Source: a virus
Lineage: Duplodnaviria; Caudoviricetes
Reading direction: 5' to 3' (one strand)
IMG/VR virus record: IMGVR_UViG_3300021387_000090
Coordinates: 64,001 to 128,000 of that record
DNA length: 64,000 nt
Part shown: positions 2,980-42,983 of the stretch, piece by piece
Numbering within the stretch: position 1 is the first letter of the stretch
Layout of the letters: every line of letters starts with the position of its first letter
Program-made: the position numbers and the translations under genes
The notes under the pieces: model-generated
Told to the model about the DNA's origin: nothing
Database searches by the model: none
What the model saw: the letters and a program-made list of their open reading frames with translations, nothing else

Positions 2980-3954
2980 CCTTTATGTTCATCATGAGTC
3001 GTTAATTCATGACCGTTTATAACAAACCGCTCTATGTCACCATAGAGAGCAGACTATATCATATTCTTTAATTCTATTACCGATTAAAGAACCCCAGCAC
3101 TTCCATCCACTTGGATGTACTCTACTCAGTTATTTACTTAATATTTCTATTAAGAAATCTTTTCGATAGTCGTTGCGCTTTCCCATCTATATGGGCTTAG
3201 TTCATGATTGTCTGTATAATGTATTTTCCAATGGCAGTTATGGCAAAGAACTACCAAATTGGATTCGTCCATCAGATCTTTATTATTAACTATTTGATCA
3301 TAAACGGAATTAATATCTCCATCATAATCATTTTTAATAAAATCTTCAAAAAGTAATTTAAAAGGCTTAATATGATGAGTTTCTAAATTTCCTCCTCTTT
3401 TACCACAACATTGACAAGTATAATTTTTTTCACGAATCAAACGTTTTGATATTGTTTTAAAAATTCCTCTTGCTACACGTTTTTCATCTTCGTAACCTTT
3501 ATAATTAGGATTATTATCTCCTGTAAATCGACCTATTAAAGATTCACTAATTTTATTTCTTTGTTCAATATCATCTATTTTCCCGTGTCTATCCTTTATT
3601 CCTTGTCTATTAAGAAGAATAGTAACATCTGATCTTGAGACACCTAACCTCTCAGCTATTTCGTAATCATATAAACCTTGATTATGTAGTTCCAAAACTT
3701 GCTGCCTACGATTCATTTCATATTTATGTAAGCCTAATTGATTAAGTTTTTTACCAACCGTACTTTTTGTATATCCTGTAATATCACTTATTTCTTGATA
3801 TGATAAATTTTGATTAAATAAATCAATTAATACCTCATCTGCCACTTTTTTAATTTTTATTACCTATCTTTCTTTGCCATTTTATAAATACAGACTTCCC
3901 ATGAATTCACTGGGTTTTCATAATAAATCACTTTATTATGCCGCTATATAATTA
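2980..3954 (-). mobile_element. Group I intron in nrdD
   Basis: 5' exon ends CCCGU and pairs with intron GCGG (P1 with U.G). R-like CAACGACUA and S-like GAUAUAGUC elements, terminal G at 2980. Splicing restores FTYPV-LTYSLL. Confidence 0.9.
3150..3845 (-). CDS. Intron-encoded HNH homing endonuclease with N-terminal HTH repeats
   Basis: CQCC...ETHHIKP...NLVVLCHNCHWKIH. The C-terminus (WESATTI) runs into the intron R element. Confidence 0.88.
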   Translation of the reverse strand: MADEVLIDLFNQNLSYQEISDITGYTKSTVGKKLNQLGLHKYEMNRRQQVLELHNQGLYDYEIAERLGVSRSDVTILLNRQGIKDRHGKIDDIEQRNKISESLIGRFTGDNNPNYKGYEDEKRVARGIFKTISKRLIREKNYTCQCCGKRGGNLETHHIKPFKLLFEDFIKNDYDGDINSVYDQIVNNKDLMDESNLVVLCHNCHWKIHYTDNHELSPYRWESATTIEKIS

Positions 3955-16193: not shown

Positions 16194-17237
16194 TTATTTC
16201 TCCTTAATAAGATAGTCGTTATTCAAAACTTTCATGGAGAGCCAACCAGAAATTTCTGTAGAATATACATGATTACTAATTGGACGAATTACAATTCCCT
16301 CTTTCTGCTGTCCAGATGAATACTTGCCCTTTGCTCTTTCAAGTAAATCTTCTACTGTATCATAAGAAAAGAATAAACTCTCTTCTTCAACAGGAACCAT
16401 ATTAAGGTCACAGTCATTACACAGCTTCTGAATCTCATATAGGCTATATCTTCTATCATTGACAAAATCAAGAACAGTAAATACATACCATTCTGGCCTC
16501 TTAAGTCCAAGACGGTTGCCCTGAATTCCGGGACCGCACCATTCTCCTTGAACAGCAATGTTCCGATACCCATATTTTTCTAAGGATTCAAAAATATTGT
16601 GTTCATGAGCATATTTCCACATTGCGCACTTATCGTCATCAGCCAATTCATTATTGCGTGAACATACACCATTATGATCGTAATAGTTATACATAGTAAC
16701 AGGACTACCGTCCATTTTAGTAGTAATGTAATAACCTTCACAAGATTTAAATTCGTCAATAAGTCTCGGATAAGATTGCACACGAAGTTCGTCTGTCTTA
16801 GGGACTCCAATGGAAGTGGGAAAGTCACTAATCACGGTTCCAGCAGCACTTGTATATTCTTCAATTTCCCACTTCTTAACTCCAAGAATATCAGTAACGT
16901 CATCACCAAGGAAATAATCACCTTCAGGCAGAATAGACATTGGCATAACCAATCCCTGAGAAATCTCGCCACGAAGCTTAACCGTTTTAAGTCTGAATCC
17001 CTCACCCATTAAATCGGTCTTTTTATAACTGCTATTCCGAAGGAATTCAAATTTCTCTTCTACAGGCAGAAAACTATCTACTTCAAAATATACACACCAA
17101 TCACCAACATGAAATTGTCCCTTCTGACAAACAACTTGCCATCCCAATACATGAACGAGTTCAATTCTATCAGCATCTTTAATAGGCGTTACATCATGTA
17201 CATACTGAATTGAGGCCAGCTTTCTTTTCGTACCCAT
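16194..17237 (-). CDS. ATP-dependent RNA ligase (DRB0094/Rnl2-like)
   Basis: N-terminal RKLASIQ...ADRIE OB-like domain, KMDG adenylation motif, QGEWCG, EGIVIR, terminal SMKVL. Confidence 0.88.
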   Translation of the reverse strand: MGTKRKLASIQYVHDVTPIKDADRIELVHVLGWQVVCQKGQFHVGDWCVYFEVDSFLPVEEKFEFLRNSSYKKTDLMGEGFRLKTVKLRGEISQGLVMPMSILPEGDYFLGDDVTDILGVKKWEIEEYTSAAGTVISDFPTSIGVPKTDELRVQSYPRLIDEFKSCEGYYITTKMDGSPVTMYNYYDHNGVCSRNNELADDDKCAMWKYAHEHNIFESLEKYGYRNIAVQGEWCGPGIQGNRLGLKRPEWYVFTVLDFVNDRRYSLYEIQKLCNDCDLNMVPVEEESLFFSYDTVEDLLERAKGKYSSGQQKEGIVIRPISNHVYSTEISGWLSMKVLNNDYLIKEK

Positions 17238-18240: not shown

Positions 18241-19350
18241 TTATACTCCTGTTATGTTCATTGAACTCATCATTTTTAAGATGTTTATGTTTTGACGAAT
18301 ATTGTCAAACAATCTATTAATATCACCCTTATCCACTTCATCAGGAAAACTAATTCTGATTGTTCTAGCAGCTTCTTCATCGCTCAAACCAATAGCTTTT
18401 AGTACATGACTGGGTTCAGAATTATACGAATTACAAGCAGAACCTGCGGATACATACTCGCCCTGATCATGAAGCAACCCAATTAACTGTTGACCATCAA
18501 TTGGTTCTTTAATTGTAAGACTTAAAATATTATAAAGCCTCTGTGTAGGATGACCGTTTACAGTTGCAAAATCTTGACAATGTTCTACAGCGTATTCATA
18601 TACTTCTTTGAAATAATTCTGTTTTGAATAATCAATTAATTCAACTGCTTTAGCCAAACCCATAATATAAGGTACATTTTCTGTACCACCACGCATATTT
18701 CGTTCTTGTGAACCATATATTAGTGGACTTAGGTATTCCTGCGAATCTTCTTTTATATATATAAATCCAATTCCTTTTGGCGCTCCAATTTTATGGCCTG
18801 AAACGGACAAAGAGTCAACGCCTAATTCCTTTACATCTATCGGAATTTTTCCATACGCTTGAACAGCATCTGTATGGAAAAAAATCTGTCTATCATGTGC
18901 ATACTTTACCAATGTTTTAATATCTTGAACTGTACCAATTTCATTATTTGCCATAATTACGGCAATAATAGCAGAATCTAGGTATACATCATCTAACCAA
19001 CTAGCATATGAAATAACACCAAATTGATCATTGTATAATGTTTTACTAGAATCTCTTACGCCCACGTCAATCGAATGATGTTCCAAACATGATGTTGCAA
19101 CCATAACATCATAATCGTTAGAAACTACCCATGAATTCCCTTCACTACCACCAGAGGTAAAAAAGATCTCCTCTGGTTTTGCATTAATACTTTTTGCAAT
19201 TATTTCTCTGGCCCTTTCAACGTCTCTACGAATTTCTCTGGCAGGTTCATAGATTGCTGAAGGGTTATACCACTTATCTGTAAAATAAGGCATCATAGCC
19301 TTTAATACTTCAGGCTTCACAGGTGTGGTTGCCGCTGTATCCCAATACAT
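18241..19350 (-). CDS. iscS: Cysteine desulfurase (IscS/NifS family)
   Basis: YWDTAATTP, FTSGGSE, ANNEIG, HTDAVQ, SGHK (PLP Lys), GGTEN, SAGSAC (catalytic Cys). Confidence 0.92.
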   Translation of the reverse strand: MYWDTAATTPVKPEVLKAMMPYFTDKWYNPSAIYEPAREIRRDVERAREIIAKSINAKPEEIFFTSGGSEGNSWVVSNDYDVMVATSCLEHHSIDVGVRDSSKTLYNDQFGVISYASWLDDVYLDSAIIAVIMANNEIGTVQDIKTLVKYAHDRQIFFHTDAVQAYGKIPIDVKELGVDSLSVSGHKIGAPKGIGFIYIKEDSQEYLSPLIYGSQERNMRGGTENVPYIMGLAKAVELIDYSKQNYFKEVYEYAVEHCQDFATVNGHPTQRLYNILSLTIKEPIDGQQLIGLLHDQGEYVSAGSACNSYNSEPSHVLKAIGLSDEEAARTIRISFPDEVDKGDINRLFDNIRQNINILKMMSSMNITGV

Positions 19351-29279: not shown

Positions 29280-29418
29280 TCGGAGTGATAGGATTCGAAC
29301 CTATAACACACAGTTCCTTGTTCCTATGAAGTAAGTGTTATACTGCTTCATTTTACATGAGAATAATAATAACACTCAAATATATTATACTGTTGCTCTA
29401 CCGTTAAGCTACACTCCG
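29280..29418 (-). ncRNA. tRNA scaffold with a Ro60-binding (Y RNA) helix inserted in the anticodon loop
   Basis: CGGAGTG/CACTCCG acceptor, D arm, ACAGT/ACTGT stem, T arm. The insert carries TATTCTC-loop-GAAGCAG...TTACTTC, matching the Y-like elements at 37.6-39.9 kb. Confidence 0.75.
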
Positions 29419-29576: not shown

Positions 29577-29649
29577 TCGGAATAGAGAGACTTGAACTCT
29601 CGCCTCATCGGTTAAAAGCCGATTACTCTACCAACTGAGTTATATTCCG
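29577..29649 (-). tRNA. tRNA-Lys(UUU)
   Basis: CGGAATA/TATTCCG acceptor, ATCGG-CTTTTAA-CCGAT, GAGAG-TTCAAGT-CTCTC. Confidence 0.9.
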
Positions 29650-35269: not shown

Positions 35270-36485
35270 AAAATTTTTTTTGCTATATTGATCACCTTTT
35301 TCTTTCCCCTCTTAATAACTATCCCCAACTCTGTATTTCCAAATCACGGTTTTATAAAAATCCCAATTGGTTTTTACCATTTCTAATGAAACTGTTCTCC
35401 AAGAAACACCATGTTGCGATTCATTATGTTCTCGTTCCATAATATCAGTAATTTCTTTTACGATTTTCATCGCTTCTTCATCAGAATTTACATCATAAAT
35501 TGTAAACTCAAACCCAAACCCATTATCAATTCCTTTATAATAAATATCTATATTATCATTTACTTTAATTCGTAATTCTATAGGTATTGTTAAATCTTTA
35601 GGAATATAAAATTTAATAGCACTCATTGTTTACCTCAAATTCTCATTGTACACTATTTCATCATTGGTAATAATAGATCTTACCATCCAATCATAACCAC
35701 AAAAACCACGATTAGATTTTCTTAATTTATTCGCTTCTTTAGCATCAATAATTCTACAAGTAATACAAGCAGTCCATCCATCGTTCCATCCATAATAAAA
35801 TGATTTTCCATTTAATTCTTCACATCTTTTTTTACCAATCTGTCTATCTGTCTTAGTAATGATATGAATATCTTTTTCCCCAGACCATCTACCATTCCAA
35901 CTACCACAATTAGGCATTGATAATTCAAAACAAAGAATCATTTCTTCTCCTCATATGTCTCAATTGTTGTACCATAATAGTGCTTATCAGGATATGATCT
36001 TTCCACAATGATATGATAATCAGTAATATCATCTTTTACGAAACTATGAACCATTAAAAGATCATCACGGTCTAAGAAGAATATACAATGTTTTACAATC
36101 CACCAAAGTATTTTACTCATCATCTATCTCCGTCATTTTTGCACCACAATAGGGGCATTCCTTTTCTAATGGCTTTGGATGTTCTACACCATAACATCTA
36201 CCATTACCACAATGAGTACATTCATAATATGGATCACCACCCGGAGTACATACACCACGGATTCGAATCCATTTCGCTTTCAAATCAGATTCAACAATAG
36301 GACAGGAATCAGGACAAGCAATATATAATCCAGAGTGCGCACTAATTAATTCCTTTGTTACTGCACATTGAATAGAGTCATCAAACGGATTCCATTTTGC
36401 TAAATAGCACATATCACACGAAGATGGTTTGTCTAATCCTCTTATAAAAACTGACATTATATAACTCCTTTCCTGTTGTAGTAAA

Positions 36486-36559
36486 TTGGGAATGTGAGAT
36501 TCGGACTCACGACACACGGCTTATAAGGCCGCCGCTCTAACCGACTGAGCTAATTCCCA
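36486..36559 (-). tRNA. tRNA-Ile(UAU)
   Basis: TGGGAAT/ATTCCCA acceptor, GCGGC-CTTATAA-GCCGT, T loop TCCGAAT. Confidence 0.82.
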
Positions 36560-36560
36560 C

Positions 36561-36651
36561 TGGCGGGGCCTGAAGGATTTGAACCATCGCACGACTTTCA
36601 TCGCCTAGCTGATTTCAAGTCAGCCCTCTTCAACCACTTGAGTAAGACCCC
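36561..36651 (-). tRNA. tRNA-Ser(UGA)
   Basis: GCTGA-CTTGAAA-TCAGC, long variable arm, encoded GCCA end. Confidence 0.9.
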
Positions 36652-36655
36652 AGAA

Positions 36656-36728
36656 TTGCCAACCGTGGAATTGAACCACGACCTCTTCCGTTATAGCTGG
36701 AGTGTGCTATCCTTTACACCAATTGGCG
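36656..36728 (-). tRNA. tRNA-like element with irregular anticodon arm (undetermined)
   Basis: GCCAAT/GTTGGC acceptor, GTGT/GCAC D arm, CGTGG-TTCAATT-CCACG T arm, poorly paired anticodon stem. Confidence 0.55.
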
Positions 36729-36860
36729 TTTGCCTTCCATATCCTCACAACTGTTCGTGTGTTGATCAGACACAACCCTCGTACCTACACTCTTGCTAAA
36801 ACCCGCCTTGTTGACTCTACTTTTTGAAAGGCACTATAATAAAGGATCCTTATTAACTAA

Positions 36861-37385
36861 TTAAGGCCATTCACCTAATGGCTTACCTACATTAGCCACA
36901 TCAGTACAGAAATGCACTGGAATATTTTCAAATATTTCTTTTGCAATATCCTGATACAAAGTGGATCTCATTCCATTAATATCACCAAGATTGTCATTAT
37001 AATACTGAACCACCTGATTCCTAAATACAACAAAATCCATTTGCATTGCATAAGGATTATCTACCGAATGAAAATAAGATACAATAGGATTATTCTTAAA
37101 AGCTGCCTGAATAAGTTCAAATGGACTCATTTCATTTGTGGGATTAGCAGGAATAACAATAATCTTAATACAAACATTTCCGAAATATTTCTCAGAGGGG
37201 AGAAGCTGTGTTAATGCATCTGCTTTTTCACTACCAGTCACATACAACTTGATCTCATCTGTATTTTCATTAAAAACAATTTTAATATCAGGATCTTCCT
37301 TAAACAACTCTTCTAACTCGTTATAATACTCACACCAAGGTGGTGACAAATTCAATTCATTACTATTTCTAACTTCTTCGTCCAT
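36861..37385 (-). CDS. Hypothetical phage protein within the tRNA cluster
   Basis: ORF track with SD (AAGGAG). Confidence 0.65.
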   Translation of the reverse strand: MDEEVRNSNELNLSPPWCEYYNELEELFKEDPDIKIVFNENTDEIKLYVTGSEKADALTQLLPSEKYFGNVCIKIIVIPANPTNEMSPFELIQAAFKNNPIVSYFHSVDNPYAMQMDFVVFRNQVVQYYNDNLGDINGMRSTLYQDIAKEIFENIPVHFCTDVANVGKPLGEWP

Positions 37386-37489
37386 AGTTTTTAATCTCCT
37401 TACTTATTATTTAAACCATAACTCTATTTATCTTTGCGGTTATTTGTCGTTTGGTGGAAATCATTTTCTTTTTTTGAGTCATGATTTAG

Positions 37490-37562
37490 AGCCGCCAGAG
37501 GGACTTGAACCCCCAACCTGCTGATTACAAATCAGCTGCTCTACCAATTGAGCCATGACGGC
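37490..37562 (-). tRNA. tRNA-Thr(UGU)
   Basis: GCCGTCA/TGGCGGC acceptor, GCTGA-TTTGTAA-TCAGC, canonical D and T arms. Confidence 0.92.
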
Positions 37563-37617
37563 AAATGGATGGCCTGATTACCCATCCTGCAGCAGTTTGC
37601 TCCTGCTTGCCAAGTTA

Positions 37618-37713
37618 AAGCTGAGAATAATAAAACGAGTTTATATAATACAACACCCATCATCAAAAAAACTTACCTACTTGTTAGAAGTAACTCGTTT
37701 TCCGCTTCAGCTT
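37618..37713 (-). ncRNA. Y-RNA-like element 1 (D-arm-like insert only)
   Basis: AAGCTGAAGCGG-AAAACGAGTTACTTC...AACTCGTTTT-ATTATTCTCAGCTT terminal helix. Confidence 0.75.
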
Positions 37714-37733
37714 ATCTGAAAGGACTTTTTATC

Positions 37734-37839
37734 AACCGAGAATATTTGAAGAGTTCATATGGGATTCGAACCCACTTAGTTAGATTTACAGTCTAGTGAT
37801 AAACCAAATATCGAAGTAACTCTTCAGGCCGCTTCGGTT
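37734..37839 (-). ncRNA. Y-RNA-like element 2 with D, anticodon (GUA, Tyr) and T arms
   Basis: Conserved helix enclosing GATA/TATC D arm, CTAGA-CTGTAAA-TCTAA and GTGGG-TTCGAAT-CCCAT. Confidence 0.8.
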
Positions 37840-37857
37840 ATATTAATATTCATGTTA

Positions 37858-37971
37858 ATAGCCGAGAATAATGATAGGGTTTTATACCTTGGGATTCGAA
37901 CCCAAATAATCCAATTACCAATTAGAAGCATTACCATTATGCGAAGTAACCCTAACAACCGCTTCAGCTAT
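37858..37971 (-). ncRNA. Y-RNA-like element 3 with D, anticodon (GGU, Thr) and T arms
   Basis: Conserved helix enclosing GCAT/ATGC D arm, TCTAA-TTGGTAA-TTGGA and TTGGG-TTCGAAT-CCCAA. Confidence 0.8.
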
Positions 37972-37987
37972 ATAATTTATCATCATA

Positions 37988-38120
37988 ATAGACGAGAATA
38001 AGATAACAGTTTTTTAGTATCTTTCAATTGGAATCGAACCAATAATAGTTTTCTTAAAAGGAAAATGACTTAACCGTTTGTCTATAAAAGAGAAGTAACT
38101 GTTATAACCGCTTCGCCTAT
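37988..38120 (-). ncRNA. Y-RNA-like element 4 enclosing a complete tRNA-Lys(UUU)-like cloverleaf (38019-38091)
   Basis: GGCGAAGCGG...GTTACTTC, then TCTTTTA/TGAAAGA acceptor, D arm, TTTTC-CTTTTAA-GAAAA, ATTGG-TTCGATT-CCAAT, then AACTGTTAT-CTTATTCTCGTC. Confidence 0.8.
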
Positions 38121-38126
38121 ATTTTA

Positions 38127-39791
38127 TTACTGTTTATTTCGTTTTCTATTATCTTTTTCTTGATCTTTCTGATCCCATAACTTGATCATAGCATCAGCAA
38201 AAACAAGTTCTTTACCAGTCCAACCATACATAATGTTTGTTCTATATCCGTATTCAGGAACCAATACATTACTGTATCCCGCAGTTTGTACACAGAACAC
38301 ATTTACTTTAGGATTAACTTTGTTTCTGTATTCCTGAATAAGTTTGGCTACATCAATGTAAGTTATTCCACAGCAAAAACCAGCTTCTCTATATTCACGC
38401 TCACCTTGAAGTGTTCCATAAAGCCCACCATGACCAGCTTGCATATCTGAATAGATAAAGATATTATCCCAATGTTCTTTCTTTTTGATGGCGTCTCTAA
38501 AGAAAATCCAAACACCATTTTCTGTACCGCCACCGACATCTCTACTCCGTCCACTGGTAATTTTTTCAGCCTGTGTTAATACACCATTCCGTTTGGAAAT
38601 GGGCGTAATAATTAACTCATCCCCAAACTTACCAACATACCCCTCGTCGCTATTCTTGGCAGTAATAACAGAACTTAGATTATCAATCTCCGCAACAGTC
38701 ACGCTACCATACTCAGAATTAAAAGCGCCCCATGCAGATCCGCTATTATCAGAAAGACACATTGTCTTACCTTTTAGCTTCGGCATATTATCACAAGCAA
38801 TATCAATACATTCTTCCAAAGCATCAAGTACTATGGGCTTATGATATATGTCTGCCTTTTCAAGCATTTTATATGCAGACCAATAACGGAAAGGGAACTG
38901 CTTTCCATTGATTACACCTTTCTTCAGATAATCAAGGATTCTTTTACATAAATCAGCATCCAAAATCTCTGTAAAGATATTCCTTAAATTACGAAGGAGG
39001 CTCATGTGATTAAGAACTTTGGCATCCCAAATCTCTCTCCAAGTTTTTCCTGCGGATTTTAATCTTTCCCACGTTGACTCATTATCTTCTACTTTAATTG
39101 TACCAGTGGTCATTAATTCATCAATCACTGAATTATTTGCATGACAAATTCTTACGGTATCAATCATGCCCACGTTTGCGTTTTTATATTTCGCCAGTTC
39201 ATATCTGGTTCCATTCTTCAAACGCTTTGCCCAAGATCTTTTTAAAATAGAAGGAATATGATTCTTCTTTCCGTTTCTATACAGCCAATAAGTAAGCTGA
39301 GAACTAGGTTCGTCTGCTCTACTCATTACCTGATAATTAATTTCAGAGAAAAGACCGGGATGTTCTTCGTCAAACTGTACTCTCTTTGGATGCATTGCAG
39401 CACGAACCATAATCACTTGCGGATTCAACCGCATATAATAATCTTTTCGTAATTCCAAAGCCCAACGAATGGTAGCTTCAAAATCTGCATCCAGAGCGTC
39501 ATCAATAACTGTTTCCATTACTTCAGAAGTCTTTTTACCATTCCACTGATCACCAATTACAGCATAATCAGCAAAGGTTCTATTCAATGTAAAAATACCA
39601 TCAAGGACTCCTTTTTGGGCAAATTCACCAGTTCTATAATACTGAGGTTCGCCCATGATCGAGGATGCTGTAACCATTTTCATTGTTTCCACGGGAGAAA
39701 GTCCATAAGATATACCCCCCATATAATTGGTTTGGGCCTTTTTTGTTTCTGTAGTTCTCTTTTCTGTTACCGCTCTAGCCATTCTACTCAT
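38127..39791 (-). CDS. rsr: Ro60/Rsr TROVE-domain RNA-binding protein with C-terminal vWA
   Basis: N-terminal NYMGG, helical TROVE (SLLRNLRN, QFPFRY.SAY), MIDAS DNSGS, GGT, IYSDMQ, GW at the C-terminus. Confidence 0.9.
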   Translation of the reverse strand: MSRMARAVTEKRTTETKKAQTNYMGGISYGLSPVETMKMVTASSIMGEPQYYRTGEFAQKGVLDGIFTLNRTFADYAVIGDQWNGKKTSEVMETVIDDALDADFEATIRWALELRKDYYMRLNPQVIMVRAAMHPKRVQFDEEHPGLFSEINYQVMSRADEPSSQLTYWLYRNGKKNHIPSILKRSWAKRLKNGTRYELAKYKNANVGMIDTVRICHANNSVIDELMTTGTIKVEDNESTWERLKSAGKTWREIWDAKVLNHMSLLRNLRNIFTEILDADLCKRILDYLKKGVINGKQFPFRYWSAYKMLEKADIYHKPIVLDALEECIDIACDNMPKLKGKTMCLSDNSGSAWGAFNSEYGSVTVAEIDNLSSVITAKNSDEGYVGKFGDELIITPISKRNGVLTQAEKITSGRSRDVGGGTENGVWIFFRDAIKKKEHWDNIFIYSDMQAGHGGLYGTLQGEREYREAGFCCGITYIDVAKLIQEYRNKVNPKVNVFCVQTAGYSNVLVPEYGYRTNIMYGWTGKELVFADAMIKLWDQKDQEKDNRKRNKQ

Positions 39792-39808
39792 ATTATTTTC
39801 TCCTTTTA

Positions 39809-39903
39809 AATTCGTGAATATTTAAGAGTGCTTAAAAATATATGTAGGGAAGATTTCAAGTCTTTTCTTTATAATTGAAGTAACACTCTTACCGCTACGA
39901 ATT
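39809..39903 (-). ncRNA. Y-RNA-like element 5 (leader of the Ro60 gene) with a UGA (Ser) anticodon-like stem-loop
   Basis: AATTCGTAGCGG-TAAGAGTGTTACTTC...AAGA-CTTGAAA-TCTT...GCACTCTTA-AATATTCACGAATT. Confidence 0.75.
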
Positions 39904-39924
39904 GAGACATATGTTCGCCTCACA

Positions 39925-39996
39925 CTGGGCTAACTGGATTCGAACCAGCGAATGCAGGAGTCAAAGTCCTGTGCCTTACCGCTTGGCGATAGCCCA
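39925..39996 (-). tRNA. tRNA-Gln(UUG)
   Basis: TGGGCTA/TAGCCCA acceptor, CAGGA-CTTTGAC-TCCTG, GCTGG-TTCGAAT-CCAGT. Confidence 0.92.
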
Positions 39997-40047
39997 TCGT
40001 TCTATGTATATTCTAATCTTAAACCCTTAACTCTTACTACATCATGG

Positions 40048-40077
40048 ATTATATCATATTACCCAAGCCTTTGTCAA
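40048..40077 (-). promoter_or_regulatory. Consensus sigma-A promoter for the tRNA-Gln/Y RNA/Ro60 transcript
   Basis: TTGACA-18 nt-TATAAT with TG extension. Confidence 0.75.
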
Positions 40078-40136
40078 TAGCTTTTTTCTCACTAAATGTA
40101 TTTTCTATTCTTTAGCCCCGGCTTTAAACCGGGTAC

Positions 40137-41021
40137 TTAAATCAAATAACTTCTATACTGTCGTAAAAAATCCCATCTAAAGCGGCTTATATTATATTGA
40201 TTTTTTACTTTATCATACAATTCCTGTGTAGCAATTACTGTATATGGCTGTATATTATTTTGCTTTGCCAAACAATTAATATAATGAACTATACCAGCGG
40301 TTACAATATCTGTTACAGAACAATTATATTCCATTTCTTTTAATGCTTTAACCACCTGCGCATAGATCTTTTTGTATCTTATAATAGGATCAGTTGAAGA
40401 ATCCTTCTGATAAAAATCTTTTAAGATCCGACCATTATCAATAAGATCTCTCGTAGAATGGCCCCAGGGTACAGAGTCTTCTTCTTTTGCTTGATGGATC
40501 ACTTTCAATAATTCATCAGAAATTGTAACTGTCCTGTCAATCAATTTCAATTCATGTCCATTAATATCCTCTTCTTTTGCATCAAGAAGATCCCGAAAAT
40601 TATTTTTGCCGCCAACTTCAAATAGCATCAGCATAACATATTTCATTCTTGCTGTTCGAAGTTCTTTAAGATGCAACAGAAAATCTTCACGAGTAATAAG
40701 CTGATCTTTGATTCCTTTTTCAGTAAGAATATTTTCAATTTCTGTACTGTTTATTCTGCGGGCTTCATTTACTTTACAGTATCCTTTCTGGATGCACCAA
40801 TCTATATAAATTGTAATTATGTTTTTGTACTTTTCTATGGTATAAAAGCGTTTACTTTCTGTAGTCTGAAGAAGAAATAATATTTCTTCTTTTGAAAAAT
40901 CACATACGTCTTTTTCAAACAATTCCTCAATTTCAGAAATAGAACGGAACAAAGAATCAGTTAAGTCATTACGGTTTATATCCGAATTTATAAAATCATT
41001 TTTTCTATCTTCGTTATACAC
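40137..41021 (-). CDS. MrpR (YopR)-like repressor, tyrosine-recombinase fold
   Basis: MYNEDRKNDFI...EELFEKDVCDFSKEEI...IYIDWC N-terminus resembles SPbeta YopR-type proteins. Lacks a clear R-HxxR-Y set. Confidence 0.6.
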   Translation of the reverse strand: MYNEDRKNDFINSDINRNDLTDSLFRSISEIEELFEKDVCDFSKEEILFLLQTTESKRFYTIEKYKNIITIYIDWCIQKGYCKVNEARRINSTEIENILTEKGIKDQLITREDFLLHLKELRTARMKYVMLMLFEVGGKNNFRDLLDAKEEDINGHELKLIDRTVTISDELLKVIHQAKEEDSVPWGHSTRDLIDNGRILKDFYQKDSSTDPIIRYKKIYAQVVKALKEMEYNCSVTDIVTAGIVHYINCLAKQNNIQPYTVIATQELYDKVKNQYNISRFRWDFLRQYRSYLI

Positions 41022-41948: not shown

Positions 41949-42983
41949 TTAAAAAACAAAATCAGCTTTTTCTTCTCTTTCAACGGAATCCGTCAAATAT
42001 TTTGTCAGATCCTGAATCATGGCATCATATCTGTTCTGCACGGCCTCCTTTCTTGCAGAACCAGATCCAACATAAGTTACATACTGTTCTACAAGATCAT
42101 ATCGCCCATCACAGAAGAAATCCTGAATCCATTTAATCAGTGTCTCTTTCTCTACAAAACCATCTTTCAGCACCTTATTAATTACAGGAACAAGACTAAG
42201 AAGATGAATTCTGGTCACAATCCGTTTCTGTACCTTCTTCTTAAAGCAACCCACATAAGCTTCATAAATAATATCATAAATCTTATTCAACTGATCTACA
42301 TCATCCTGAGACAGTTCAGCGTCATTCATAACTTCACGGACTGTCTTAGTACTAAGATCCGTTTCCTCATTATTAATAAGTACATAAGACTTCATTACAA
42401 TCTCTTCATTTGCATACTTAGCCATGGCTGCCTGAGTAAAAGTAGAAGTAAACAACTGATGCTGACCGATTTCTTTTACCTTGTCAAAAGATTTTGCTTT
42501 AACTCTCGTCAACTCAATTCCAGACAACGGCTTACCATTATTTAGTCTAAAAAACAGTTCGTTTACTTCTTCATCAGTAAGGCCAGAGAAAGACCATACC
42601 TTTACCTGATACTGATCAATGAGATCTTTTACCTCTTCAGGCAATTCAGAATATCTAAAACCTTCAAGTCCCATTTCTTCTGTCCCATGGTCTGTATCAA
42701 AAGTGATATCTGGAACTTTAGTCAAAGCAAACTCATCATTTCTAAACGCTGCGATAGTAGTTAATCTCTGTTTTCCATCAAGAACATCATAAATACCATC
42801 TTCTCTTGTGGTAATAATCGGAGGCATAGGGAATCCGTACAGCATCGAATGAATCAGCAAAGATTTCTGTTCCCGATTCCAAGCAAGTCCTCTCTGTACT
42901 TCATTCTCTACAGTGATTTTATTATTCTTAAGCATAGTCATAATCTGTTTCGCGGTCCAGCTTTTAGAATCAAGATCAAACAT
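41949..42983 (-). CDS. DUF262 (ParB-like) domain protein
   Basis: VQRGLAW...LIHSML.G.P.PPI, VLDGKQRLTT, FFRLNNGKPLS. Confidence 0.85.
   Translation of the reverse strand: MFDLDSKSWTAKQIMTMLKNNKITVENEVQRGLAWNREQKSLLIHSMLYGFPMPPIITTREDGIYDVLDGKQRLTTIAAFRNDEFALTKVPDITFDTDHGTEEMGLEGFRYSELPEEVKDLIDQYQVKVWSFSGLTDEEVNELFFRLNNGKPLSGIELTRVKAKSFDKVKEIGQHQLFTSTFTQAAMAKYANEEIVMKSYVLINNEETDLSTKTVREVMNDAELSQDDVDQLNKIYDIIYEAYVGCFKKKVQKRIVTRIHLLSLVPVINKVLKDGFVEKETLIKWIQDFFCDGRYDLVEQYVTYVGSGSARKEAVQNRYDAMIQDLTKYLTDSVEREEKADFVF

What the first reader, a model, noticed from the sequence alone, without database searches (positions are those of the whole stretch)
37618..39903. Phage Ro60 locus with an array of Y RNAs displaying different tRNA anticodon arms (Tyr, Thr, Lys, Ser)
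Seen: five elements flank the Ro60 gene and share a terminal helix, 5' (C/T)GAAGCGG-stem-GTTACTTC ... stem'-TATTCTC 3'. Stem sequences differ between copies but stay paired, including a compensatory CGA/TCG to CGT/ACG change in element 5. The enclosed cargo differs: D arm only (1), D-anticodon GUA-T (2), D-GGU-T (3), a full Lys UUU cloverleaf (4), and a UGA anticodon stem-loop (5). Known: bacterial Ro60 binds Y RNAs encoded nearby via a GNCGAAN0-1G-type helix, and YrlA RNAs mimic tRNA. As I recall, YrlA places the Ro helix at the anticodon position and has no anticodon loop; here it sits at the acceptor position and 7-nt U33-containing anticodon loops are kept. Inference: a modular set of Ro60-tethered, non-chargeable tRNA decoys against host anticodon nucleases (PrrC and PARIS cut tRNA-Lys; some defence effectors target tRNA-Tyr), or adaptors for tRNA repair/turnover.
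Basis: partly seen in the sequence, partly recalled or inferred. Interest (0 to 1): 0.95.

Follow-up and report, generated by a model that had tools for sequence, protein, structure and literature searches.

The report
Phage Ro60 RNAs displaying anticodon arms
A 155-kb phage encodes a Ro60 ring protein flanked by five small RNA genes that share one conserved docking handle but each carry a different insert, four of them copies of tRNA parts that include intact anticodon arms; this is a variant of the known Ro60/Y RNA particle that I did not find described in print, and its job is untested.

Summary
Five same-strand elements flank a Ro60/TROVE gene and share a two-helix handle. A covariance model built only from other phages finds all five (40.7-52.9 bits).

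The same handle lies beside Ro60 homologues in 75 of 79 further phage contigs. All 154 hits are on the Ro60 strand, and arrays reach five per locus there (seven in Bacillus phage G). It is almost certainly the Ro60-docking module of phage Y RNAs. One phage G copy carries a YrlA-type permuted tRNA.

In the window, the inserts are:
- three native-order D/anticodon/T bodies with anticodons GUA, GGU and UUU, the last a full cloverleaf;
- one lone anticodon-like hairpin (UGA);
- one insert that is not tRNA-like.

Family-wide, 7-nt CU-NNN-AA loops on 5-bp stems are about 20-fold enriched over shuffles. The stems covary, and orthologous elements keep the D and T arms but change the triplet.

None matches Rfam YrlA, which lacks an anticodon loop. 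D. radiodurans Yrn1 partly anticipates the topology. The anticodon-nuclease decoy idea is untested, and I give it about 0.2.

This scan has already found similar Ro60 RNA arrays on other phage DNA. I found no paper describing them. Verdict: a new variant of a known kind.

The parts
40048..40077 (-). Consensus sigma-70-type promoter (TTGACA, 18 nt, TG-TATAAT) upstream of tRNA-Gln, E5 and Ro60
   Evidence: 12 of 12 hexamer matches. No terminator-like site lies between 40300 and 36300, so one transcription unit is likely. This is inferred.
39925..39996 (-). tRNA-Gln(UUG), an ordinary tRNA heading the unit
   Evidence: ARAGORN and Rfam tRNA, 63.2 bits.
39811..39901 (-). E5: handle (CGUAGCGG ... 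UAUUCACG) with a lone anticodon-like hairpin, AAGA-CUUGAAA-UCUU. It ends 5 nt before the Ro60 ribosome-binding site.
   Evidence: R1 45.1 bits. MFE fold. Sequence orthologue L117:5864-5957 keeps the loop with compensatory stem changes.
38127..39791 (-). Ro60/TROVE-family protein, 554 aa
   Evidence: Pfam TROVE 25.8 bits against a cut-off of 23. PHROG 850 'RNA-binding protein', E 3e-43 over the full length. Best solved relative is Thermus phage phiLo Ro60 (9KOP/9L5Y), E 6e-11. 65% nucleotide identity to Bacillus phage G gp540.
37991..38117 (-). E4: handle enclosing a complete AU-rich tRNA-Lys(UUU)-like cloverleaf (38019-38091) with a 7-bp acceptor stem, U73 and no encoded CCA
   Evidence: R1 42.7 bits. 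Rfam tRNA 58.9 bits. ARAGORN. Orthologues lose the acceptor stem and change the anticodon.
37861..37968 (-). E3: handle with D arm, anticodon arm (loop UUGGUAA, GGU) and T arm. The handle stem stands in place of the acceptor stem.
   Evidence: R1 40.7 bits. Rfam tRNA 37.8 bits, model positions 10-63. ARAGORN Thr(GGU).
37735..37838 (-). E2: handle with D arm, anticodon arm (loop CUGUAAA, GUA) and T arm
   Evidence: R1 48 bits. Rfam tRNA 36.4 bits. Orthologues in L126 and L127 carry UUU instead.
37620..37711 (-). E1: handle with a 45-nt G/U-rich cargo that is not tRNA-like
   Evidence: R1 52.9 bits. No Rfam hit. No conserved cargo among the loci held.
37489..37562 (-). tRNA-Thr(UGU), an ordinary tRNA following the array
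   Evidence: Rfam tRNA 71.4 bits.
29280..29418 (-). Sixth copy of the handle, circularly permuted. It lies outside the finding, inserted at the anticodon-loop position of a free-ended tRNA body.
   Evidence: Read directly: UAUUAUUCUCA, a loop, UGAAGCAG, a stem and UACUUC sit between the two anticodon-stem strands. Rfam tRNA 51.5 bits. The lead came from an earlier scan note.

Best explanation
The five elements are Y RNAs, the partner RNAs of the phage's own Ro60 ring protein.

Each RNA has two modules.

1. A constant handle. It consists of a terminal helix, a conserved internal loop (5' strand A/U-GCGG, 3' strand UAUUC), a 9-11-bp inner stem and a conserved ACUUC linker. This is the Ro60 docking site.
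2. A variable display module held at the top of the handle. Here it is three tRNA-shaped bodies in native D/anticodon/T order, one bare anticodon-type stem-loop, and one cargo that is not tRNA-like.

The RNAs are probably transcribed with Ro60 and the flanking tRNAs from one promoter and then cut out.

By analogy with characterised Y RNAs, which tether Ro60 to another protein such as PNPase, I infer that the display modules bring Ro60 together with proteins that recognise tRNA bodies and anticodon arms. That would tie the particle to tRNA damage, surveillance or turnover during infection.

Shown: the anatomy, the covariation, the linkage to Ro60, and the conservation of anticodon-loop architecture.
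Inferred: Ro60 binding (about 0.9), display or tethering to tRNA-recognising factors (about 0.55), and the biological purpose.
For: Handle is a real structure:
- Helices covary in 13 elements from other phages: 88% paired, 11 of 15 pairs with changes on both sides, 0 of 500 shuffles reach this.
- A model from those 13 finds all five window copies.

Linkage to Ro60:
- 154 hits in 75 of 79 Ro60-bearing phage contigs, all on the Ro60 strand, at a median of 187 nt upstream or 246 nt downstream.
- 0 of 80 bacterial or archaeal loci that match the bare 15-nt pattern hold a full handle.
- Handle variants differ in frequency between Ro60 identity classes.

Link to known Y RNAs:
- The same handle encloses a YrlA-type permuted tRNA in phage G (Rfam YrlA 36.2 bits, E 1e-5).
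- Phage G is cited as having a Y-like RNA in PMC12135203, reference 29.
- E4 begins GGCGAAG, which fits the published GNCGAAN0-1G motif.

Anticodon arms are constrained:
- 30 CU-NNN-AA 7-nt loops on 5-bp stems among 160 unique elements, against 1.4 +/- 1.3 in shuffles.
- 26 distinct arms with 12 triplets, none with A at position 34 (P about 2e-5 to 6e-4).
- In native-order elements all 5 anticodon-stem pairs show changes on both sides, 95% paired.
- Orthologues keep the D and T arms but carry UUU/GCU/GCA, or GUA/UUU.

The permuted sixth copy inside a tRNA body shows that the handle is an autonomous module.
Against: - There are no expression, processing or binding data for any member.
- The Ro60 assignment rests on profile matches: TROVE is only 2.8 bits above its cut-off, though PHROG 850 gives E 3e-43.
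- Only E4 fits GNCGAAN0-1G exactly.
- The cargo is very heterogeneous. Most family members carry short loops without tRNA features, and E1 has none, so tRNA mimicry is not obligatory.
- The anticodon triplets are AU-rich, like the genomes, so the excess of UUU may only reflect composition.
- My shuffles use my own approximate dinucleotide-preserving routine, and related sequences are not independent.
- R1 E-values are rough.
Confidence: 0.55

Rival explanations
1. Anticodon-nuclease decoys. The displayed anticodon arms, held on Ro60, act as pseudo-substrates or competitive inhibitors that soak up host tRNA-cleaving defence nucleases. The real tRNAs are thereby spared.
For: - Canonical 7-nt loops with U33 and A37 are strongly enriched, and the triplets vary between orthologous elements and within arrays.
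- Lys-type loops (UUU or CUU) are the commonest, 7 of 26 arms.
- From my own knowledge, not checked here: tRNA-Lys is cut by PrrC and PARIS, and tRNA-Tyr by a retron effector.
- A Ro60-like gene of phage Bas63 was reported to counter a defence system called ppl (PMC11482910).
- The phage also encodes an RNA ligase.
Against: - No nuclease, host or phenotype is known for this phage.
- The excess of UUU is what AU-rich composition predicts.
- Many relatives carry only short cargos that are not tRNA-like.
- The Bas63 defence (ppl) is proposed to act on DNA, not tRNA.
- A later check of a similar bold reading elsewhere in this scan priced it at 6 in 100. That is a lead, not evidence.
Confidence: 0.2
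2. tRNA maturation scaffold. The handle is a leader-trailer pairing on tRNA precursors. At least E4 is released by RNase P and 3' processing as a second, functional tRNA-Lys(UUU), with Ro60 acting as chaperone or quality control for phage tRNA precursors.
For: - E4 is a complete cloverleaf with a 7-bp acceptor stem, G18G19 and a canonical T loop.
- The genuine phage tRNAs read here (Thr, Lys) also lack encoded CCA.
- M. smegmatis YrlA is cut by RNase P and receives CCA in vivo (PMC4201824).
Against: - E2, E3, E5, E1 and most family members have no acceptor stem of their own.
- E4 orthologues shorten the acceptor stem to 5 or 2-3 bp.
- Those orthologues carry GCU without the long variable arm that tRNA-Ser needs, or GCA. 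The lineage is therefore not selected for decoding.
- E4 has U73, whereas the phage's genuine tRNA-Lys has A73.
- The phage already has a normal tRNA-Lys(UUU) at 29577-29649.
Confidence: 0.1
3. Evolutionary by-product. Y RNA loops in tRNA-rich operons repeatedly capture pieces of neighbouring tRNA genes by recombination. The anticodon arms persist only as stable hairpins that fill the loop and have no role of their own.
For: - The arrays sit inside tRNA clusters.
- All permutations of tRNA parts occur: native order, permuted order, T arm only, lone anticodon-type hairpin.
- The triplets match the tRNA species commonly carried by AU-rich phages. That match is my inference.
Against: - Loop architecture (C32, U33, A37, A38, 7 nt, 5-bp stem, no A34) is kept while the stems turn over by compensatory change. 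This indicates purifying selection on the anticodon-loop shape, not decay.
- Some cargos hold two such arms in tandem.
Confidence: 0.15

Closest known systems
YrlA (Y RNA-like A; Rfam RF02553) of Salmonella, Mycobacterium and phages (Chen et al. 2014, PMC4201824; Wang et al. 2018, 10.1101/312249)
   Same: - Encoded next to Ro60 on the same strand.
- The 5' and 3' ends form the Ro-binding stem with a CGAA-type motif.
- The second module mimics tRNA, with real D and T arms.
- A YrlA-type member in phage G uses the very same handle.
   Different: - YrlA has the permuted order T arm, closed acceptor hairpin, D arm.
- In YrlA the Ro helix continues from the anticodon stem, and there is no anticodon loop.
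- The window's E2-E4 have native order, the handle at the acceptor position, and complete 7-nt anticodon loops.
- None hits RF02553 even at E <= 10.
Deinococcus radiodurans Yrn1 (Chen et al. 2013 and 2014)
   Same: It was modelled with the Ro-binding helix closing the molecule and a stem-loop in the anticodon position between D-like and T arms. This is the same overall topology as E2 and E3. It is known to tether Ro60 (Rsr) to PNPase.
   Different: - The Yrn1 'anticodon' loop has 6 nt, there is no full D arm, no variable region, and only one such RNA type.
- Here the loops are canonical 7-nt CU-NNN-AA, the D arms have G18G19, and an array displays different triplets.
Thermus phage phiLo Ro60 with Yrl1 and Yrl2 (PMC12135203)
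   Same: - A phage-encoded Ro60, the closest solved relative by sequence.
- Two Y-like RNAs encoded beside it, with a 5'-3' stem and a CGAA-bearing internal loop.
- Binding and PNPase ternary complexes were shown in vitro.
   Different: No tRNA or anticodon-arm cargo is reported there: 'anticodon' occurs 0 times in the text. It has two RNAs, not an array of five or six.
Mycobacterium smegmatis YrlA processing (PMC4201824)
   Same: A Y RNA whose tRNA-like part has a 7-bp acceptor stem is cut by RNase P and receives CCA. This is the precedent for possible processing of E4.
   Different: In that case it is the permuted acceptor hairpin that is cut. E4 is a native cloverleaf nested in the handle. 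No data exist for E4.
Phage-encoded tRNAs that evade or neutralise tRNA-cleaving defences (T5 tRNA-Lys against PARIS, T5 tRNA-Tyr against a retron effector; from my own knowledge, not read here)
   Same: Phage RNA genes in tRNA clusters whose relevant feature is the anticodon arm of Lys or Tyr species.
   Different: Those are functional, chargeable tRNAs that replace cleaved host tRNAs. The elements here mostly lack acceptor ends and are linked to Ro60.

Membership tests
Bacterial/phage Y RNA (Ro60 partner RNA) | Encoded close to the Ro60 gene and on the same strand | tested here: met
   All five lie within 520 nt of the ORF, on the minus strand. Family-wide, 154 of 154 hits are on the Ro60 strand in 75 of 79 loci.
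Bacterial/phage Y RNA (Ro60 partner RNA) | The 5' and 3' ends pair into a stem that carries the conserved 5' motif GNCGAAN0-1G | tested here: inconclusive
   The closing helices covary. E4 has GGCGAAG, an exact fit. E2 (ACCGAAG), E1 and E3 (GCUGAAG) and E5 (UUCGUAG) each differ from the motif at one or two positions.
Bacterial/phage Y RNA (Ro60 partner RNA) | Physically bound by Ro60 | not testable with these tools
   Needs RIP or EMSA.
YrlA (Rfam RF02553) | Permuted tRNA-like domain (T arm, closed acceptor hairpin, D arm) with no anticodon loop | tested here: not met
   E2-E4 have the order D, anticodon arm, T arm, with 7-nt loops. E1 and E5 have no T or D arm.
YrlA (Rfam RF02553) | Score at or above the Rfam gathering threshold of 69 bits | tested here: not met
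   No RF02553 match in 36300-40200 even at E <= 10. As a positive control, the phage G element scores 36.2 bits.
tRNA (Rfam RF00005) | Cloverleaf scoring above the gathering threshold of 29 bits | tested here: met
   E4 58.9 bits, E3 37.8 bits (partial, positions 10-63), E2 36.4 bits. E1 and E5 have no hit.
tRNA (Rfam RF00005) | Own 7-bp acceptor stem with free ends able to receive CCA and an amino acid | tested here: not met
   E2 and E3 have the handle stem plus a 5-nt ACUUC linker in place of the acceptor stem. Only E4 has a 7-bp acceptor stem, and it is buried in the handle. Its orthologues lose that stem. Charging cannot be tested here.
D. radiodurans Yrn1-type Y RNA | Ro helix at the acceptor position with a stem-loop in the anticodon position between D-like and T arms | tested here: met
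   This is the topology of E2 and E3, compared with the description. There is no sequence model for Yrn1 in Rfam hits, so homology was not tested.

The most novel reading that the evidence does not exclude
Phage Ro60 particles are a programmable display platform. One protein-docking handle presents a changeable repertoire of anticodon arms (Lys, Tyr, Thr, Ser, Asn, Leu, Met/Ile, Arg, Gly and others). These act as RNA decoys or baits for host proteins that read anticodon loops, namely tRNA-cleaving defence nucleases or anticodon-loop modification enzymes. The arrays would then be an RNA-based counter-defence system whose specificity evolves by swapping three nucleotides.
Probability: 0.2. Interest if true: 0.9.

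Novelty: new variant of a known kind. Interest (0 to 1): 0.7.

Why it matters
What the tRNA-like half of bacterial Y RNAs binds has been open since 2014.

This phage family offers a natural experiment. One conserved Ro60 handle carries many interchangeable cargos, including bare anticodon arms whose loop architecture is under selection while the triplet changes. That points to partners that read anticodon loops, and it gives concrete, short RNAs for pull-downs and binding tests.

The arrays are also a practical annotation issue. tRNA finders call E3 and E4 tRNA-Thr and tRNA-Lys, which inflates phage tRNA counts.

If the link to tRNA-targeting immunity holds, this would be a new class of RNA-based anti-defence.

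Tried and rejected
- **Rfam on the locus.** At E <= 10 it gave only tRNA hits and noise, with no YrlA, Y_RNA or ribozyme family.
- **Pseudoknot or alternative pairing between GAAG of the 5' motif and CUUC of the ACUUC linker.** Rejected. Copies with GAUG or GUAG keep ACUUC unchanged, so the pairing breaks without compensation. The CGA/UCG terminal helix does covary.
- **My first two regex scanners.** They mis-paired the 3' partners, so I replaced them with the covariance model.
- **The bare 15-nt pattern.** It is not specific. About two thirds of the IMG/VR matches are chance, and all 80 examined matches in cellular genomes are chance.
- **Single-sequence MFE z-scores.** They are weak (-1.7 to +0.3). 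The support comes from covariation, not thermodynamics.
- **E1 as 'D arm only'.** No support.
- **Short-BLAST of the cargos.** It found orthologues only for E4 (D arm) plus generic T arms.
- **RtcB.** It is absent from the phage, so there is no Salmonella-like rsr-rtcB linkage.
- **Two review papers** (PMC10870794, PMC6047535). They are not held in the library.
Full report
**What is there**

The finding lies on the minus strand of a complete 154.7-kb phage genome with direct terminal repeats. The window is bases 64001-128000 of that genome.

Read 5' to 3', the region contains, in order:
- a perfect sigma-70-type promoter at 40077-40048;
- tRNA-Gln;
- element E5 (39901-39811);
- a 554-aa ORF (39791-38127);
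- elements E4 (38117-37991), E3 (37968-37861), E2 (37838-37735) and E1 (37711-37620);
- tRNA-Thr.

No terminator-like site interrupts this stretch, so a single transcription unit is likely. That is inferred.

The ORF is a Ro60-family protein:
- Pfam TROVE, 25.8 bits.
- PHROG 850 'RNA-binding protein', E 3e-43 end to end.
- The closest solved structure by sequence is the Ro60 of Thermus phage phiLo, E 6e-11.
- The closest annotated phage gene is gp540 of Bacillus phage G, a TROVE protein.

**The shared handle**

All five elements have the same plan:
- a terminal helix of 3-6 bp;
- a conserved 5' strand A/U-GCGG;
- a 9-11-bp inner stem whose last three pairs use GUU;
- a conserved single-stranded ACUUC;
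- the cargo;
- the 3' strand of the inner stem;
- a conserved UAUUC;
- the 3' strand of the terminal helix.

The core pattern occurs 4 times against 0 expected. The fifth copy (E5) has CGU...ACG where the others have CGA...UCG or UGA...UCA, which is a compensatory change. The genome holds no further linear copy.

**The handle is a family trait linked to Ro60**

- Phage G has seven copies around its Ro60 gene.
- A pattern scan of IMG/VR, followed by tblastn, placed the handle next to Ro60 homologues of 23-76% identity in at least 16 contigs.
- I aligned 13 short-cargo copies from other phages. The two helices are 88% paired, 11 of 15 pairs show changes on both sides, no shuffle of 500 reaches this, and slid controls collapse.
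- The covariance model R1 built from them finds all five window elements at 40.7-52.9 bits, although none was in the training set.
- In 79 further Ro60-bearing contigs R1 gives 154 hits in 75 loci. All are on the Ro60 strand, at a median of 187 nt upstream or 246 nt downstream, with up to five per locus.
- Two of the four loci without a hit have Ro60 at the contig edge.
- As a specificity control, none of 80 bacterial or archaeal loci that match the bare 15-nt pattern contains a full handle.
- Handle variants (GAAGCGG, GAUGCAG, GUAGCGG) differ in frequency between Ro60 identity classes.

**Link to known Y RNAs**

One phage G copy (L001:7678-7829) encloses a T arm, an acceptor hairpin ending in CCA, and a D arm. 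That is the YrlA arrangement. It is the only element that hits Rfam YrlA (36.2 bits, E 1e-5, below the 69-bit threshold).

Phage G is cited as having a Y RNA-like RNA (citing Chen et al. 2014). E4 begins GGCGAAG, which fits the published GNCGAAN0-1G Ro motif; the other four differ at one or two positions.

I conclude that the handle is the Ro60-docking module of a phage Y RNA family. Binding itself is inferred.

**The cargos in the window**

- E4 encloses a complete AU-rich cloverleaf with anticodon UUU (Rfam tRNA 58.9 bits; ARAGORN). It has a 7-bp acceptor stem, U73 and no CCA.
- E3 has D, anticodon (GGU) and T arms (37.8 bits over model positions 10-63).
- E2 has D, anticodon (GUA) and T arms (36.4 bits).
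- In E2 and E3 the handle's inner stem stands where the acceptor stem would be.
- E5 has only a hairpin with loop CUUGAAA.
- E1 has a G/U-rich cargo with no tRNA feature.

None of the five hits YrlA even at E <= 10.

**Are the anticodon arms real features?**

In relatives with 74-76% identical Ro60 (L117/L127, L126), and in the more distant locus L149, the orthologues of E4 keep nearly identical D and T arms. Their acceptor stems shrink from 7 bp to 5 bp to 2-3 bp. Their anticodon arms are entirely different in sequence: UUU, GCU, a degenerate arm, and GCA. Orthologues of E2 carry UUU instead of GUA.

Across eight native-order elements all five anticodon-stem pairs show changes on both sides, with 95% of cells paired. 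The E5 orthologue keeps CUUGAAA with compensatory stem changes.

Across 160 unique family members:
- There are 30 hairpins with a 5-bp stem and a 7-nt loop CU-NNN-AA, against 1.4 +/- 1.3 (maximum 5) in 100 shuffles of the cargos. The shuffling routine is my own approximation.
- The 26 distinct arms carry 12 triplets: UUU 6; UAA, GUU and UGA 3 each; GCU, GUA and CAU 2 each; UUA, UCU, UCC, GAU and CUU 1 each.
- None has A at position 34, as in real tRNAs (P about 2e-5 to 6e-4 by simple binomial).
- 25 of 26 have A or U at position 36.
- These counts ignore shared ancestry.

Some cargos hold two such arms in tandem, and their MFE folds reproduce handle plus arms. Two orthologues, L135 and L130, differ by UUU against UCU on an identical stem.

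Other members combine the parts differently:
- permuted YrlA-type bodies;
- permuted bodies that still keep an anticodon arm (L099 with CAU, L144 with GAU);
- T arm only;
- short plain loops, which are the majority.

A sixth copy in this genome (29418-29280) is a free-ended tRNA body with the handle, circularly permuted, at the anticodon-loop position. The lead for that copy came from an earlier scan note.

**How it most likely works**

Characterised Y RNAs dock on Ro60 through the stem and use their other module to gate the ring or to tether Ro60 to a second protein. PNPase plays that role in Deinococcus and, in vitro, for phage phiLo.

The simplest reading is that this phage makes a set of Ro60 particles whose second module is a tRNA body or a bare anticodon arm, and that these recruit or occupy proteins that recognise such shapes. 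Selection on loop architecture, together with free variation of the triplet, fits either specificity determinants or a generic anticodon-loop reader.

The phage has an RNA ligase (PHA02142 OB fold plus PF09414; window 16194-17237) but no RtcB. That is compatible with a role around tRNA damage, but only weakly so.

The decoy idea is attractive but untested. UUU dominance is also what AU-rich composition predicts. The one published phenotype for a phage Ro60-like gene concerns a defence thought to act on DNA.

**Comparison with what is known**

YrlA has a closed acceptor hairpin, the Ro helix runs from the anticodon stem, and there is no anticodon loop.

The acceptor-position topology, however, was already drawn for D. 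radiodurans Yrn1, with a 6-nt loop and no full D arm.

What I did not find in the papers searched:
- this handle family;
- arrays of up to seven copies;
- canonical anticodon arms as Y RNA cargo.

The PhageMaP preprint only speculates that some tRNA genes next to a phage Ro60-like gene might be Y RNAs. Two relevant reviews were not available to me.

Within this scan, similar arrays next to Ro60-like genes have already been reported on other phage DNA. This window is therefore another instance, not a first sighting.

**Verdict**

It is a new variant of a known kind (Ro60 with Y RNAs), and its function is open.

Noticed in passing
window 29280-29418 (-): A tRNA-shaped RNA (Rfam tRNA 51.5 bits) whose anticodon loop is replaced by a circularly permuted copy of the same Ro handle: UAUUAUUCUCA, a loop, UGAAGCAG, a stem and UACUUC. 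Model R1 misses it because of the permutation.
   Followed up: partly
window 36656-36728 (-): An odd tRNA-like gene. ARAGORN gives an undetermined type with a 2-nt 'anticodon', and Rfam tRNA scores only 33.5 bits. L117 has a counterpart at 3094-3165.
   Followed up: no
L099:7953-8090 (-) and L144:5297-5423 (+): Handle elements whose cargo is a permuted tRNA (T arm, acceptor hairpin, D arm) that still keeps an anticodon-type arm (CUCAUAA and CUGAUAA). The break point of the permutation therefore differs from classical YrlA.
   Followed up: partly
L135:5342-5439, L130:5292-5390, L148:3344-3442, L129:5358-5460: Single handles carrying two anticodon-type hairpins in tandem (UUU+UAA, UCU+UCC, GUA+GUU). 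The orthologues L135 and L130 differ by one loop base (UUU against UCU) on an identical stem.
   Followed up: partly
window 16194-17237 (-) and 18241-19350 (-): An RNA ligase (PHA02142 OB fold plus PF09414) and a class-V aminotransferase or cysteine-desulfurase-like gene lie about 21 kb from the Ro60 locus. The phage has no RtcB.
   Followed up: partly
window 40137-41021 (-) and 41949-42983 (-): Upstream neighbours of the locus: an integrase-like protein (PHROG 5830; MrpR N-terminal domain) and a protein with a GmrSD_N-type DUF262 domain.
   Followed up: no
L023 (whole 7.7-kb contig): Two handle elements, one YrlA-type and one with a lone CUGUUAA arm, with no Ro60 homologue detectable by tblastn on the contig. 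Either Ro60 lies beyond the contig end or it is too divergent to detect.
   Followed up: no
L001 (Bacillus phage G) 187-247, 5679-6352 and 7678-7829 (-): Phage G has seven handle elements around gp540, none of them among the features annotated in the stretch of the record examined. Only the YrlA-type one resembles a published Y RNA class.
   Followed up: partly
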